From a virus (lineage: Duplodnaviria; Heunggongvirae; Uroviricota; Caudoviricetes), in IMG/VR virus record IMGVR_UViG_2923296884_000001: a stretch of DNA of 39,382 nucleotides. The stretch is one strand, 5' to 3'. Position 1 is the stretch's first letter, and every line of letters starts with the position of its first letter. This document shows, piece after piece, positions 1 to 39,382 of this stretch. A program made the position numbers and the translations under genes. The notes under the pieces were generated by a model. That model had not been told where the DNA came from, did no database searches, and saw only the letters and a program-made list of their open reading frames with translations.

Positions 1-1293
<1,293 letters not shown>

Positions 1294-1315
1294 TACCCAA
1301 TTTTTCTGAATCTAA

Positions 1316-1335
1316 AAAGCGCCTGCGGGCGCTTT
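1316..1335 (+). terminator. stem-loop AAAGCGCC-tgcg-GGCGCTTT directly after serS; possibly a truncated native terminator
   Basis: Perfect 8-bp inverted repeat 23 nt after the serS stop, but followed by aagtagagg rather than a T-run. Confidence 0.4.
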
Positions 1336-1414
1336 AAGTAGAGGTTTAATCATTTGAAAATAAATGGATTTTATTTTTAAGTGTCCATATAACGTCCATC
1401 TTTGAATGCAAAAA

Positions 1415-33615: not shown

Positions 33616-34446
33616 TTACTTCACCGGAACAAACGGAACAGCGGTGTTACTGGTCATGTATTGCGGTAGCGTGCCGTTCCATTTGTTAATCGCTTCCAGC
33701 TCCATAACGCCGGGATTCTGGCGCAGAGCTTCACCGCGTAAACGAATGGCGTCGGCTTCAGCCTGGGCTTTTGTGCGAATGGCATCGGCTTGTCCGGCAG
33801 CTTCTGCGCGCAGCATGTTGGCTTCAGCTTCGCGTTGCTTGACTTCCTGTTCACGTTGCAGGGTTTTCTGGTTTGCCGTGACTTTGGCATTAATGCTGTC
33901 GATAACGGTTGGCGGGTATTCCGGCTTACCCACATAAGAGAGGCTCATTACCTGAATGCCGATAGGTGTCATTTCTGCCTGAATGTCTTTAAGTGCTGAA
34001 TCCAGCAGTTCAGACTTGCCACCGTCGATAAATTTATCGGTGGTCATTTTGCTGGCCAGTCGGTTGAGTGCGTCGGCGATCTTCTGGCGCAGGTCAGTGT
34101 CGGTAATGTCGTCCACGCCTTTGCGGTAGGTCTGAAACACCGTGGTAACTTTGGATGGATCAACTTTGTAGGCCACGCCGATGTGATAGCCGATGGTTGT
34201 GCCGTCACTCATCTGGAAGTTGAACGGCTCATCGTAAGTCTTCATTTGTTTGAAAGTCGGGAAGATGTAAACCTCTGTATTCCAGCCTGTCCAGTAGCGG
34301 CCAACGCCAACTACTTCGCCGACGCCTTTGTCGTCGCCCAGTTTGTTGACTTTGATTCCCACATTACCTGGCTCAACGCGATCGCAACCAACCAGCAGGA
34401 TGGCGGCAAAAAGCGGGAGAATCTGAAAGAGTTTGAATTTCTTCAT
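33616..34446 (-). CDS. SPFH/band-7 domain lipoprotein (276 aa)
   Basis: Signal peptide with lipobox LLVGC, then a region reading as an SPFH/band-7 domain, then a coiled-coil Ala/Glu/Gln-rich C-terminus; SD AAGGAA; overlaps the upstream gene (ATGA). Confidence 0.85.
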   Translation of the reverse strand: MKKFKLFQILPLFAAILLVGCDRVEPGNVGIKVNKLGDDKGVGEVVGVGRYWTGWNTEVYIFPTFKQMKTYDEPFNFQMSDGTTIGYHIGVAYKVDPSKVTTVFQTYRKGVDDITDTDLRQKIADALNRLASKMTTDKFIDGGKSELLDSALKDIQAEMTPIGIQVMSLSYVGKPEYPPTVIDSINAKVTANQKTLQREQEVKQREAEANMLRAEAAGQADAIRTKAQAEADAIRLRGEALRQNPGVMELEAINKWNGTLPQYMTSNTAVPFVPVK

Positions 34447-34646
34447 TGCTTGATTTCCTTGATGTACTTACTGAAAAGGCGAACAACGCCTGCCGGGTAC
34501 AGCATGGCAATGAAAATGCCCAGCAATACCAGGAAGGAGCTGTCTGATGAAATCATTCGGGGGAGTAGTCCTGCATACAGAATGAAAGAGACGAGGACGC
34601 ATACCAGCGCCCACATGTATGCGCGAAACCAGGTCTTTTTGTTCAT
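34443..34646 (-). CDS. small two-helix membrane protein (67 aa), partner of the SPFH gene
   Basis: Two hydrophobic helices (WALVCVLVSFILYAGLL, FLVLLGIFIAMLYPAGVV); translationally coupled on both sides. Confidence 0.65.
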   Translation of the reverse strand: MNKKTWFRAYMWALVCVLVSFILYAGLLPRMISSDSSFLVLLGIFIAMLYPAGVVRLFSKYIKEIKQ

Positions 34647-36728: not shown

Positions 36729-36920
36729 ATGTCAGAAGATAAAAAAGTTGTTAATTTGTTGAGTGAACTTAGTGCTGCTCTGGATAACATTAACCCTCCC
36801 AGGGTAAAAACGACGGGTGATAAAGACGCATTAAACACAGAGATTCATATATTACTGGCGTTAGTAACTGACAAAATTCAGCGTAAATACCCACCTGTCA
36901 CACAACTGGTTGATTTTTAA
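36729..36920 (+). CDS. hypothetical small protein (63 aa), opposite strand to the early operon
   Basis: ATG at 36729 preceded by AAGAGG and an AT-rich promoter-like stretch; low GC; convergent with the 139-aa gene. Confidence 0.5.
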   Translation: MSEDKKVVNLLSELSAALDNINPPRVKTTGDKDALNTEIHILLALVTDKIQRKYPPVTQLVDF

Positions 36921-36926
36921 TTTGAT

Positions 36927-37349
36927 TTATGCCGGGCTGCTCCCGGCATCTTCTAGCTGCCATAATGTCTCGTCACCTGATAGAGCAAAACGAAATGAGT
37001 GAAGTATATCCCCCCGAGAGAAGCTCACGGCTACAGCTGCGGGAAAGTCAAATATAATCCCACCTTCATTTTTAAAACGATTACGCAATTGATAGGCTAT
37101 CGGTTTGATTTGTGCAGGAAGAGTATCTATATCTCTTCCATTGACAACAGAATCTTTGTTTTCAAGTACTGATTTAGCGATTAGATATAGATGCCAGTAA
37201 CTGGTTACAATTGTTACTCCTGTGATGTGTCGTAAATTAATTGCAATTCGTCCGTTATTATGTTTTTCCGCAAGGTATTTCAGGTTATCAATTAATGCTT
37301 GGTCATTTTTTGAAATAGTTATTGTGAAATCTGACGTGTTTGTTTTCAT
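36927..37349 (-). CDS. hypothetical protein (about 140 aa), low-GC insert
   Basis: Start refined to the ATG at 37349 (MKTNTSDF...), 4 nt after the cox-like stop, SD AGAGG; the longer ORF-track version overlaps cox-like. Confidence 0.55.
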   Translation of the reverse strand: MKTNTSDFTITISKNDQALIDNLKYLAEKHNNGRIAINLRHITGVTIVTSYWHLYLIAKSVLENKDSVVNGRDIDTLPAQIKPIAYQLRNRFKNEGGIIFDFPAAVAVSFSRGDILHSFRFALSGDETLWQLEDAGSSPA

Positions 37350-37353
37350 ACGA

Positions 37354-37875
37354 TTAGTTGCCTCTGTTGTTTCTGAGTTGGTCCAGTTTTGAGCTTCTGC
37401 CTGTATAAACTCGCTTACCGTTAATGGTCTGGCAGTCTTCTTTATTAGCTGGAGAGAACTTCCTTTTCTGGCGGTCATACGTCCAGTAACTTTTCCAGTT
37501 GTGCCATTCTGGGGGCTCGTGCTCTGGTAGCTCATCAGCCAACTTGTCCCACTCTTTGGCGTTAAACCACCATACTCCGTCTGAGTTTTCATCTTCCGGG
37601 TTTGTGCGCGTCTTGTGTCCCGGCATTTGACCGCGATGAATGGCTACGCGCAGTGCAGATTTTGTTAGCCCAATATATGCCGCGCCTTTTTCCAGAGAGC
37701 AAAGCCCGGCGATCGGACCATCCAGCCGCAAAGTCGCTCCTTTTTTGTAGGAACGCTTTTTCTTGTTTTCTTCGTGCTCGTCGTCGTTGGCGGCATCAAT
37801 GGATCCGCTGAGTGCGTTACTTTCCTGAAGTGGTTGGTGGTCAGATAACTCTTTATCGGCAATGAAGTCCCGCAT
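37354..37875 (-). CDS. Cox/Apl-like HTH regulator-excisionase with N- and C-terminal extensions (173 aa)
   Basis: Central segment AAYIGLTKSALRVAIHRGQMP resembles P2 Cox (AKLIGKSTGAVRRMIDKGKLP); first gene of the leftward early operon, divergent from C; ATG at 37875 with SD AAGAGGA. Confidence 0.65.
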   Translation of the reverse strand: MRDFIADKELSDHQPLQESNALSGSIDAANDDEHEENKKKRSYKKGATLRLDGPIAGLCSLEKGAAYIGLTKSALRVAIHRGQMPGHKTRTNPEDENSDGVWWFNAKEWDKLADELPEHEPPEWHNWKSYWTYDRQKRKFSPANKEDCQTINGKRVYTGRSSKLDQLRNNRGN

Positions 37876-37917
37876 TTGTTATCCTCTTGCGTTGGTGCGC
37901 TTGTCGCGCCTTGTGAT

Positions 37918-37937
37918 GGTTTGTTTTGGTTTGTTTT
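37918..37937. promoter_or_regulatory. tandem direct repeat GGTTTGTTTT x2 in the C/cox switch region; candidate operator
   Basis: Two adjacent 10-bp direct repeats in the 103-bp region between divergent cox-like and C starts. Confidence 0.4.
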
Positions 37938-37978
37938 CTTCACCCTGTGGTGAAGACCGAAAAGAGGATACTCATCGT

Positions 37979-38320
37979 ATGGTGAACATGTCAAGAGATT
38001 ACGCCAAAAAACTAAAGGCGATCAGAAATGCGGAAAAACTTACACAATCTCAGTTTTCGCAAGTAACGGGGGTTTCTGTAGGGACTATAGGAAATTATGA
38101 GTCTGGATATAAACCTGCGCGAATTGAGGTTGTAGAAAAAGTAATCCAAGTCGAGCGATTCGAAAAATACACTATGTGGATACTTCACGACAAAACATTT
38201 CCCGCTGCCGGGCAGGTTGCACCGGCTCTCTCTCTTGATGGCTCTATTCAGTCGGAGGGCGATCAGGTTTCAATCGGCATTACCCAAAAATCACCCCGAT
38301 CAGGCCGCAATGTTGGCTGA
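37979..38320 (+). CDS. C: immunity repressor C (HTH, XRE-like)
   Basis: About 113 aa from the ATG at 37979 (SD AAGAGGA); HTH segment LTQSQFSQVTGVSVGTIGNYESG; lies immediately before int on the same strand. Confidence 0.75.
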   Translation: MVNMSRDYAKKLKAIRNAEKLTQSQFSQVTGVSVGTIGNYESGYKPARIEVVEKVIQVERFEKYTMWILHDKTFPAAGQVAPALSLDGSIQSEGDQVSIGITQKSPRSGRNVG

Positions 38321-38389: not shown

Positions 38390-39382
38390 ATGTCGATTAA
38401 GCAACTCAAAGACGGACGTTATCAGGTCGATGTCAGACCGCAGGGGGCGGAAGGAAAGCGGATTCGAAAAATCTTTGCCCTGAAATCAAAGGCTCAGGAG
38501 TTTGAGAAGTATGTGTTACAGAACTTTCATGACAAGCCATGGCAGGCTAAGCCAGCTGATCAGCGGCGATTATCAGAGCTGCTTGATGCGTGGTGGATGC
38601 TTGATGGTCGTAATCAGGCTTACGGGGATAGCTACAGGGTTAGGCTAGGGAAGGTTGTTCGTGAAATGGGAGATCCTCGCGCCAGTCAGATGACGCGAAA
38701 ATTTATGCTTGAATATCGGTCAGAGAAATTACAGGCCGGATTAATGCCGTCCAGTATTAATCGTGACTTATGCGTACTGTCTACCATGTTCACGGTGCTG
38801 ATTGAAGCTGAGGTCTTTCACAACGCGAACCCTGTACGCGGTATACGAAAACTGAAAGTTCAGAACACAGAGATGGCCTTTCTTTCTGATGATGAGATTG
38901 AACGGCTTCTTGAGCGACTGGAGGGTGATGCGCGTCGTGTTGCCATTCTGTGTCTTTCTACTGGTGCCCGATGGAGTGAAGCATCGGAACTACGTGGAGA
39001 GCATATCGTTGGCAACCGGGTGACGTTCTTTAACACCAAAAACGGAAAATCCCGTTCGGTTCCTGTGGCGGATTCGGTCGTGCCTCTGATTAAAACCCGT
39101 CGAACGGGGTTATTGTATCAGGTTGATTATCTGAAGTTCCGGGAGATTCTTCAGGAGGTGAAACCGGATTTGCCGAAGGGGCAGGCTACGCATGTCATGC
39201 GTCATACATTTGCCACACACTTTATGATGAATGGCGGAAATATTGTTACGTTGCAACGAATCCTGGGGCACGCAACGATTCAGCAAACAATGACGTACGC
39301 TCATTTTTCGCCGGACTTCTTACAGGACGCGATCAACTTTAATCCGCTGGCTGAAAGTGTCCATAAACTGTCCATCGATTAG
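38390..39382 (+). CDS. int: tyrosine integrase (P2 Int family)
   Basis: Start refined to the ATG at 38390 (SD GGAGG); C-terminal catalytic region with ...HVMRHTFATHF...LGHATIQQTMTYAH; stop TAG at 39380-39382 is the last triplet of the window. Confidence 0.92.
   Translation: MSIKQLKDGRYQVDVRPQGAEGKRIRKIFALKSKAQEFEKYVLQNFHDKPWQAKPADQRRLSELLDAWWMLDGRNQAYGDSYRVRLGKVVREMGDPRASQMTRKFMLEYRSEKLQAGLMPSSINRDLCVLSTMFTVLIEAEVFHNANPVRGIRKLKVQNTEMAFLSDDEIERLLERLEGDARRVAILCLSTGARWSEASELRGEHIVGNRVTFFNTKNGKSRSVPVADSVVPLIKTRRTGLLYQVDYLKFREILQEVKPDLPKGQATHVMRHTFATHFMMNGGNIVTLQRILGHATIQQTMTYAHFSPDFLQDAINFNPLAESVHKLSID

What the first reader, a model, noticed from the sequence alone, without database searches (positions are those of the whole stretch)
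37354..37978. Extended Cox-like regulator and direct-repeat operator candidates in the immunity switch
The first early gene encodes 173 aa, roughly twice the length of P2 Cox, with the Cox-like HTH in the middle. The C/cox intergenic region contains two adjacent GGTTTGTTTT repeats, and both divergent genes use the same AAGAGGATA ribosome-binding sequence. Direct-repeat operators are characteristic of P2-type C repressors.
Basis: partly seen in the sequence, partly recalled or inferred. Interest (0 to 1): 0.35.

Follow-up and report, generated by a model that had tools for sequence, protein, structure and literature searches.

The report
Long Cox regulator in P2-type switch
This is the lysis/lysogeny switch of a common P2-like E. 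coli prophage: its unusually long first early protein is a genuine Cox homologue, but the two adjacent GGTTTGTTTT repeats go with Cox, not with the C repressor, whose likely operators are a different repeat pair 32 bp apart.

Summary
All three observations hold: a 173-aa ORF (37875-37354, minus strand), a tandem GGTTTGTTTT pair (37918-37937), and AAGAGGATA before both divergent genes.

The ORF is a true Cox homologue. It passes the Pfam Phage_Cox threshold, its family profile hits P2 Cox (PDB 4LHF) at E=4.5e-7, and 4LHF is the top fold match. About 54 N-terminal residues are predicted disordered; about 45 conserved residues extend the C-terminus.

The operator interpretation is mislocated. The same Cox gene is linked to at least five different C repressors. 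The GGTTTGTTTT pair stays with Cox and lies just outside the swapped immunity cassette (~37935-38200). Each C type instead carries its own direct repeat 31-33 bp apart, flanking the -10 of the early promoter Pe. In the window these are 37940-37954 and 37972-37986, the same geometry as P2 O1/O2.

The GGTTTGTTTT pair is the best-conserved half of four yTTGT boxes spaced exactly 10 bp apart. They are most plausibly Cox boxes, though this is inferred and not shown.

The prophage is 100% identical to E. coli U15A and carries the UTI89 PhiECO5 switch ("immunity class IX", 2011). RefSeq already annotates the protein as a Cox family DNA-binding protein. It is ordinary, with a few testable details.

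The parts
37354..37875 (-). Long Cox gene (173 aa), first gene of the early operon
   Evidence: ORF. Pfam Phage_Cox 31.2 bits, above the 27.5 cut-off. phrog_23196 matched full length, E=6e-116. RefSeq names it 'Cox family DNA-binding protein'.
37714..37875 (-). N-terminal extension, residues 1-54: conserved MxxFIADKELSD, a variable acidic linker with in-frame indels, and a basic KKKRSYKKG patch
   Evidence: Alignment A1. pLDDT below 50 for residues 1-48.
37492..37713 (-). Cox winged-HTH core, residues 55-128, ending in the W124/W127 pair that aligns with P2 Cox W81/W84
   Evidence: 4LHF is the top fold hit: probability 1.00, target TM-score 0.67, rmsd 2.6 A.
37354..37491 (-). C-terminal extension, residues 129-173 (YWTYDRxKRKF..KEDC..GKRVY..RKSKLEQ), strongly conserved, predicted beta-rich at low confidence
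37841..37863 (.). DNA block inside cox codons 5-12 (TCAGATAACTCTTTATCGGCAAT), nearly invariant even at synonymous sites. It includes the candidate Pc -35, TCGGCA at 37856-37861.
   Evidence: Consensus of 32 unique sequences. Synonymous codon identity is 0.89 here against about 0.5 elsewhere in the gene.
37877..37888 (.). cox Shine-Dalgarno sequence (AAGAGGATA, minus strand, 37880-37888). On the plus strand the same bases read TGT-TATCCT, a candidate extended -10 of Pc (37877-37885).
   Evidence: Sequence. Invariant across the family. The Pc assignment is my inference; the scan did not call it.
37900..37937 (+). Four yTTGT boxes at an exact 10-bp period (37900, 37910, 37920, 37930). The GGTTTGTTTT pair (37918-37937) forms boxes 3 and 4. 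Candidate Cox-box array.
   Evidence: It is the only chain of 4 in the window, and 0 of 300 simulated sequences reach 4. It is kept with Cox across all C types and genera. L013 has three copies.
37938..37955 (.). Distal C-operator candidate, CTTCACC-CTGT-GGTGAAG. It is palindromic and lies at about +3 to +20 of Pe. It also forms a 5' hairpin in the predicted Pe transcript.
   Evidence: (D1, I10).
37962..37970 (.). C Shine-Dalgarno sequence (AAGAGGATA, plus strand). Its complement, TATCCT at 37970-37965, is the predicted Pe -10.
   Evidence: TTGACA-18-TATCCT, 10 of 12 matches.
37972..37986 (.). Proximal C-operator candidate, TCATCGTATGGTGAA. It lies in the Pe spacer and overlaps the C start codon.
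37989..37994 (-). Pe -35 (TTGACA), inside C codons 4-6, as in P2
   Evidence: TGTCAA is conserved in the C types (TTGACG in type D). P2 layout.
37979..38320 (+). P2-type C immunity repressor (113 aa)
   Evidence: Pfam HTH_3. 35% identity to P2 C, E=1e-22.
37935..38200 (.). Exchangeable immunity cassette: both operator candidates, Pe, and the N-terminal two-thirds of C
   Evidence: Window versus L003: 100% identity on both sides, 55-67% inside.

Best explanation
This is a P2-type bistable switch with face-to-face promoters in a PhiECO5-class prophage, inserted between serS and dmsA.

1. Pe and C (layout predicted; binding inferred). Pe (-35 at 37994-37989, -10 at 37970-37965) drives the early operon, whose first gene is a long-form Cox. 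The C repressor shuts Pe by binding two immunity-specific direct repeats 32 bp (three helical turns) apart. One lies in the Pe spacer over C's own ATG (37972-37986). The other lies at the Pe start (37938-37955).

2. Long Cox (homology shown; function inferred). The protein is a Cox/Xis-type winged-HTH that retains the tryptophan pair P2 Cox uses to form filaments. By analogy with P2 Cox and 186 Apl, it should bind phased direct repeats. The best candidates are the four yTTGT boxes at a 10-bp period (37900-37937), half of which are the GGTTTGTTTT pair. From there it would repress the lysogenic promoter Pc, which lies in the Cox-linked left half of the spacer. It would also bind similar phased TTTGT boxes in the att arm next to int and direct excision.

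3. Cassette structure (shown). Each repressor gene is physically linked to the promoter it represses. C, its operators and Pe are therefore exchanged as one cassette, and the Cox boxes stay behind.

4. Extensions (function unknown). The acidic, disordered N-terminal stretch and the conserved basic/aromatic C-terminal stretch have no assigned function. My guess is that they modulate oligomerisation on DNA or contact Int.
For: Cox homology:
- Pfam match above the gathering score.
- Family profile versus 4LHF, E=4.5e-7.
- 4LHF is the top Foldseek hit.
- W124/W127 align with P2 Cox W81/W84, the oligomerisation residues (PMC3936717).

Gene order and promoter layout mirror annotated P2.

C operators:
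- In five C types the best direct repeat always falls at an offset of 31-33 bp, at the same place, with a different sequence.
- Shuffles reaching the observed match: A 10/500, B 1/500, C 22/500, D 0/500, E 121/500. The chance that the best offset falls in 31-33 is about 0.08 per type.
- The motif occurs nowhere else in the window.

Cox boxes:
- The 4-box phased chain is unique in the window and reached by 0 of 300 simulations.
- The TTTGT cores are conserved while their spacers vary in Salmonella, Serratia and Yersinia relatives.
- The switch left half shares k-mers with the att P' arm on the same strand only: TGTTTTGGCTT p=0.001 in L003; shared 6-mers p=0.002 in L044; GTAATTTGT p=0.006 in L048.
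- RDF sites are typically direct repeats one helical turn apart (PMC7498355, PMC3936717).
Against: - There is no binding or transcript data. All promoter, operator and Cox-box assignments are computational.
- The yTTGT core is short. Box 2 is poorly conserved.
- The switch/att k-mer sharing is not significant in three of seven loci: L049, L025 and L046.
- Two of the four boxes could stem from a single 10-bp duplication.
- The Pc position is uncertain. The scan did not call it. A second weak candidate is TTGGTG-17-GATGGT, with its -10 at 37915-37920.
- The type-E repeat is not significant on its own.
- The distal operator is also a strong RNA hairpin (z = -3.7), so its palindromy may serve RNA rather than protein binding.
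- The C-terminal model is low confidence (pLDDT 52-69).
Confidence: 0.6

Rival explanations
1. One reading: the two adjacent GGTTTGTTTT repeats are the direct-repeat operator of the C repressor.
For: P2-type C repressors do bind direct repeats (PMC1904268). The pair lies in the C/cox spacer.
Against: - The repeats are retained with four other, heteroimmune C types.
- They lie outside the exchanged cassette.
- They are 10 bp apart rather than 22-34 bp (PMC1904268).
- They lie 21-40 nt downstream of the predicted Pe start and do not flank its hexamers.
Confidence: 0.04
2. The GGTTTGTTTT pair is a slippage duplication that binds no specific protein. It would act only as a spacer or a modest intrinsic bend (phased A4 tracts on the opposite strand) between the two promoters.
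For: Copy number varies: three copies in L013, and the second copy is truncated in type B loci. The motif is low-complexity and T-rich.
Against: - The TTTGT cores of both boxes persist in diverged Salmonella, Serratia and Yersinia relatives whose flanking bases differ. The pair is therefore old and conserved.
- It is in phase with two more yTTGT boxes.
- Related k-mers recur in the att arm on the same strand.
Confidence: 0.22
3. The cassette-specific palindromes (window 37937-37956) act mainly as 5'-terminal RNA hairpins that stabilise or regulate the Pe and Pc transcripts, and are not repressor sites.
For: The hairpin has 8 bp. The predicted Pe 5' UTR folds at -18.7 kcal/mol, z = -3.7. Type B variants keep complementarity through paired changes: AAAGATAACC..GGTTATCTTT versus AAAGATACTCG..CGAGTATCTTT.
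Against: - A second, non-palindromic copy sits 31-33 bp away in the Pe spacer in every type. An RNA hairpin role does not explain that copy.
- Type D has only a weak palindrome but the strongest direct repeat, 14 of 16.
- The two roles are not mutually exclusive.
Confidence: 0.12

Closest known systems
Bacteriophage P2 Cox (91 aa, PDB 4LHF) and the P2 Pe/Pc switch
   Same: - Winged-HTH core, with profile and fold matches.
- A P..E-W..W C-terminal motif aligned with the oligomerisation tryptophans.
- First gene of the early operon, divergent from C-int.
- Pe -35 inside the first C codons, with operators flanking the Pe -10.
   Different: - 173 aa against 91 aa.
- About 54 extra N-terminal residues (acidic, predicted disordered) and about 45 extra C-terminal residues (conserved, basic/aromatic).
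- About 21% identity to P2 Cox in the core.
- No TTAAAG/CNCA cox-boxes. The candidate boxes are yTTGT, all in one orientation.
- Operator spacing is 32 bp, against 22 bp in P2.
PhiECO5 prophage of E. coli UTI89, 'immunity class IX' and the larger 'group 2' Cox proteins (Nilsson & Haggard-Ljungquist 2011, PMC3448106)
   Same: Same locus (serS-dmsA), same 173-aa Cox, an identical C protein and a near-identical spacer.
   Different: That paper defined the class by sequence only. Operators, Cox sites and the extensions were not analysed. I could not confirm from the text which named prophages make up 'group 2'.
Coliphage WPhi C repressor and operator
   Same: Direct-repeat half-sites about three helical turns apart (34 bp) flanking the Pe -10 (PMC1904268). 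The window has 32 bp.
   Different: Different half-site sequences. Here the distal copy is also a perfect palindrome.
Phage 186 Apl
   Same: A dual regulator and excisionase that binds direct repeats one helical turn apart, both between the face-to-face promoters and at att (PMC7498355). The yTTGT array sits in the equivalent position.
   Different: Apl belongs to a different Cox/Apl subgroup and pairs with a CI-type repressor. No sequence relationship was tested here.

Membership tests
Cox family (Pfam PF10743, P2 Cox type) | Sequence match to the family model above the curated threshold | tested here: met
   31.2 bits against a gathering score of 27.5, E=2e-7, residues 58-129 matching profile positions 11-86 of 87.
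Cox family (Pfam PF10743, P2 Cox type) | Winged-HTH fold like P2 Cox and lambda Xis | tested here: met
   AF2 core pLDDT 74-89. Foldseek top hit is 4LHF, with probability 1.00, target TM-score 0.67 and rmsd 2.6 A over 70 columns, followed by the Xis and RdfS excisionases. The family profile hits 4LHF at E=4.5e-7.
Cox family (Pfam PF10743, P2 Cox type) | C-terminal tryptophan pair used for filament formation (P2 W81/W84) | tested here: met
   W124 and W127 are invariant and align with P2 W81/W84 in the MAFFT alignment A2. The role of these residues is from PMC3936717. The alignment is remote in this stretch, so this is moderately secure.
Cox family (Pfam PF10743, P2 Cox type) | First gene of the early operon, divergent from C-int across a spacer of about 100 nt with face-to-face promoters | tested here: met
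   compared with the P2 annotation.
Cox family (Pfam PF10743, P2 Cox type) | Binds arrays of repeated boxes both at Pc and in attP | tested here: inconclusive
   A phased yTTGT array is present in the switch. Similar phased TTTGT boxes lie in the P' arm, which is outside the window (L001 5785-5866). K-mer sharing is significant in four of seven loci. There is no binding data.
Cox family (Pfam PF10743, P2 Cox type) | Represses Pc, promotes excision and inhibits integration | not testable with these tools
   Needs reporter, footprint and excision assays.
P2-type C repressor with direct-repeat operator | Repressor homologous to P2 C | tested here: met
   35% identity over the full length, E=1e-22. 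phrog_147 E=3e-28.
P2-type C repressor with direct-repeat operator | Two direct-repeat half-sites 2-3 helical turns apart flanking a Pe hexamer. Tested on the repeat pair 37940-37954 / 37972-37986. | tested here: met
   32-bp spacing flanking the Pe -10. The equivalent pair is found in five C types, with shuffle controls.
   The copies are adjacent (10 bp), do not flank a Pe hexamer, do not change with C type and lie outside the cassette.
P2-type C repressor with direct-repeat operator | C protein binds the half-sites and confers immunity | not testable with these tools
   Needs EMSA or footprinting and superinfection immunity tests.

The most novel reading that the evidence does not exclude
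The long Cox form would be more than a decorated Cox. Its conserved C-terminal 45 residues (YWTYDR..KRKF..KEDC..GKRVY..RKSKLE) and its acidic N-terminal tail would form new functional modules. Examples are an Int-contacting or DNA-clamping domain, and an autoinhibitory DNA mimic. Such modules would change how the protein polymerises on its one-orientation, 10-bp-phased yTTGT boxes. In addition, the first 12 cox codons would double as part of the lysogenic promoter Pc, which would explain their synonymous-site invariance.
Probability: 0.25. Interest if true: 0.45.

Novelty: new member of a known kind. Interest (0 to 1): 0.25.

Why it matters
- It corrects the operator assignment and gives a concrete, testable map of an unstudied P2-family immunity class: Pe, the two C half-sites, the candidate Cox boxes and the cassette boundaries. 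This class is present in about 6% of complete E. coli genomes (322 of 5,426), including ST131 and UTI89 lineages.
- It shows how linking each repressor gene to the promoter it represses lets immunity be swapped as a roughly 270-bp cassette.
- The long Cox offers a natural variant for asking what the regions outside the winged-HTH contribute to filament formation and excision control.
- None of this overturns current understanding of P2-like switches.

Tried and rejected
- Single-sequence phmmer against the PDB found no Cox hit. The family profile was needed.
- hhalign of A1 against P2 Cox gave only 3% probability, E=0.014. I treated this as uninformative.
- The first AF2 model, from 29 close homologues, was unusable at pLDDT 45. 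Adding six distant homologues raised the core to 74-89.
- NCBIfam has no model that the protein passes.
- The genome-contig scan returned a single locus, in E. albertii.
- Terminator reading of the palindrome was rejected. The T-rich tract precedes the stem on the plus strand, an A-rich tract follows it on the minus strand, and the scan found no terminator there.
- The 152-aa in-frame upstream extension of C (ATG at 37862) was rejected. It is open only in some type A loci and closed in L010-L012.
- An alternative Pc (TTGGTG-17-GATGGT, -10 at 37915-37920) was considered. Its -10 loses the conserved A in Salmonella L044 (GTGCGT), so I rank it second. It is not excluded.
- An exact shared RBS as a family feature was rejected. 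Only type A has AAGAGGATA on the C side.

Full report
**1. What is there**

The right end of the window carries int (38390-39382, +), a 113-aa HTH_3 protein (37979-38320, +) and, divergently, a 173-aa ORF (37875-37354, -). More minus-strand early genes follow. The window begins in serS and ends at the int stop codon. The element is 100% identical to E. coli U15A over the cox-C segment queried (37354-38320), and 322 of 5,426 complete E. coli genomes have a match to that segment. The same arrangement, with an identical C protein and a near-identical spacer, is the UTI89 prophage PhiECO5. That prophage was called "immunity class IX" in PMC3448106. Three deposited phage genomes are about 98% identical here and annotate the ORF as a Cox-family regulatory protein.

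**2. The observations**

All three are correct.
- GGTTTGTTTT occurs exactly twice in the window, in tandem at 37918-37937.
- AAGAGGATA precedes the C ATG at 37962-37970. Its reverse complement precedes the cox ATG at 37880-37888.
- The ORF is 1.9 times the length of P2 Cox.

**3. The protein is a genuine, long-form Cox**

- Pfam Phage_Cox matches residues 58-129 above the gathering score.
- PHROG 23196, a 174-position profile, is matched end to end.
- A profile of the family hits P2 Cox (PDB 4LHF) at E=4.5e-7.
- An AlphaFold model built on a widened alignment has a confident core: pLDDT 74-89, with helices at 61-68 and 72-80, a two-strand wing and a helix at 106-119.
- The best PDB match to that model is 4LHF, with probability 1.00, target TM-score 0.67 and rmsd 2.6 A. 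Other excisionases follow.
- In a multiple alignment, W124 and W127 are invariant and line up with P2 Cox W81 and W84. Those are the residues that drive P2 Cox filament formation (PMC3936717).

The extra length has two parts.
- About 54 N-terminal residues are predicted to be disordered. They comprise a conserved MxxFIADKELSD motif, an acidic linker that varies in length by in-frame indels, and a basic patch.
- About 45 C-terminal residues are highly conserved, basic and aromatic, and predicted to be beta-rich at low confidence.

The start codon at 37875 is supported by an invariant M1, the RBS, and in-frame conservation across Escherichia, Shigella, Salmonella, Yersinia and Serratia homologues of 170-192 aa.

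The family is narrow. There are only 23 cluster representatives among 1.84 billion proteins. Intermediate forms of 112-130 aa exist, including in the phages pro483, P88 and D8. A 2011 survey already noted a subgroup of larger Cox proteins.

**4. A natural experiment separates C sites from Cox sites**

Thirty-nine IMG/VR loci, one E. albertii locus and four further loci from Salmonella, Serratia and Yersinia carry this Cox. It is linked to at least five different C repressors.

Against L003 (type B), the window is 100% identical through cox and the left part of the spacer. Identity falls to 55-67% between about 37935 and 38200, then returns to 98-100% for the C-terminal third of C and for int. 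The exchanged cassette therefore holds the right part of the spacer and the DNA-binding part of C. The GGTTTGTTTT pair ends at 37937, just outside it, and is retained with every C type.

**5. The likely C operators**

The promoter scan finds one strong early promoter on the minus strand: TTGACA (37994-37989), 18 nt, TATCCT (37970-37965). Its -35 lies inside the first C codons, as in annotated P2. Its -10 is the complement of the C Shine-Dalgarno sequence.

A direct repeat flanks this -10: TCACCCTGTGGTGAA at 37940-37954 and TCATCGTATGGTGAA at 37972-37986, 32 bp apart.

In each of the five C types, the best direct repeat found when scanning offsets of 18-40 bp lies at 31-33 bp. One copy is over the C start codon and the other is about 32 bp upstream. 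The sequence differs in each type.

| C type | Example locus | Best match (of 16) | Offset (bp) | Shuffles reaching it (of 500) |
|---|---|---|---|---|
| A | window | 12 | 32 | 10 |
| B | L003 | 13 | 33 | 1 |
| C | L022 | 12 | 33 | 22 |
| D | L044 | 14 | 32 | 0 |
| E | L046 | 11 | 33 | 121 |

A best offset of 31-33 arises in about 8% of shuffles per type. The motif is found nowhere else in the window.

This matches the published P2-family rule: two direct half-sites 22, 26 or 34 bp apart flanking a Pe hexamer (PMC1904268).

The distal copy is also a palindrome, and it folds as a stable hairpin at the 5' end of the predicted Pe transcript. An RNA role cannot be excluded.

**6. What the GGTTTGTTTT pair probably is**

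The pair forms boxes 3 and 4 of four yTTGT motifs at an exact 10-bp period (37900, 37910, 37920, 37930).
- No other chain of four exists in the window on either strand, and none of 300 first-order Markov simulations reached four.
- Across 32 distinct spacers the TTTGT cores of boxes 3 and 4 are at least 90% conserved, while the bases between them vary. Boxes 1 and 2 are weaker.
- One locus, L013, has three copies of the 10-mer.

Direct repeats one helical turn apart are the typical targets of Cox, Apl and other excisionase-type proteins (PMC3936717, PMC7498355).

Such proteins also bind the att arm. The P' arm lies just beyond the window end, at L001 5785-5866, between the int stop and the AAGCGCCTGCGGGCGCTTT core. 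It reads TAATTTGTGTTAATTTGTTCCCCCTGTTTTGGCTTAT, with TTTGT motifs 10 bp apart.

K-mer sharing between the Cox-linked half of the switch and this arm occurs only on the same strand. It is significant in four of seven loci: for the longest shared word p=0.001, 0.006 and 0.04 in L003, L048 and the window, and for shared 6-mers p=0.002 in L044. It is not significant in the other three. I rate the Cox-box reading at about 50%. The main rival is a functionless or merely structural duplication.

**7. Pc**

Pc should lie in the Cox-linked left half of the spacer. The best candidate is an extended -10, TGT-TATCCT (37877-37885), which is the complement of the cox RBS, with a weak -35, TCGGCA (37856-37861), inside cox.

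One observation is consistent with this. Cox codons 1-12 show synonymous codon identity of 0.89, against about 0.5 for the rest of the gene, across 14 diverged homologues. This rests on only eight degenerate codon columns, and it could instead reflect mRNA constraints or recombination.

**8. Verdict**

The Cox assignment is confirmed. The operator assignment is moved to a different repeat pair. The feature is a member of a known and already annotated kind, and its regulatory sites have not been studied experimentally.

Noticed in passing
window 1-1336; L001 5866-5893: The window starts with serS (1-1293). The prophage sits between serS and dmsA. The att core appears to be the serS terminator, AAGCGCCTGCGGGCGCTTT: window about 1317-1336 at the left junction, and L001 5868-5886 at the right junction. 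The right junction lies beyond the window end.
   Followed up: partly
window 39355-39375 and about 1382-1400: Probable Int arm-type sites. Tandem GTCCAT repeats (TGTCCATAAACTGTCCAT) lie inside the 3' end of int, and GTGTCCATATAACGTCCAT lies in the opposite arm. Both fit the P2-type arm-site consensus tgTGGaCa cited in PMC3448106.
   Followed up: no
L001 5805-5855 (att P' arm, outside the window): A conserved inverted repeat, TCCCCCT...AGGGGGA, encloses an A/T-rich TTGAAAAATAAGTAAA stretch. It is present in the E. coli, Salmonella, Serratia and Yersinia relatives. Its function is unknown; it could be an IHF site or an int terminator.
   Followed up: no
window 33616-34446 (-) and 34443-34646 (-): A 276-aa SPFH/Band_7 protein with a lipoprotein-like signal (LVGC) and a 67-aa hydrophobic protein sit inside the early region. 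The near-identical phage PV468777 instead annotates a derepression protein and an ash-like remnant around the corresponding positions. This looks like a cargo or moron swap.
   Followed up: partly
window 37841-37863: A block inside cox codons 5-12 is nearly invariant at synonymous sites across genera. It contains a small palindrome, GATAA-CTCT-TTATC, which resembles the half-sites of the type B operator (AGATAAC..GTTATCT).
   Followed up: partly
window 36927-37349 (-) and 36729-36920 (+): The 140-aa gene directly after cox and a 63-aa plus-strand ORF have no Pfam, PHROG or NCBIfam family. The 63-aa ORF is antisense to the direction of the early operon.
   Followed up: no
window-wide: All ten matches to GGTTTGTTTT with at most one mismatch lie on the plus strand. 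This probably reflects strand composition bias in a prophage whose genes here are mostly on the minus strand.
   Followed up: no
P0075: A 3,021-aa protein matched the Cox-family profile in 15 separate stretches. It may be a repetitive protein with W-rich repeats. I did not examine it.
   Followed up: no
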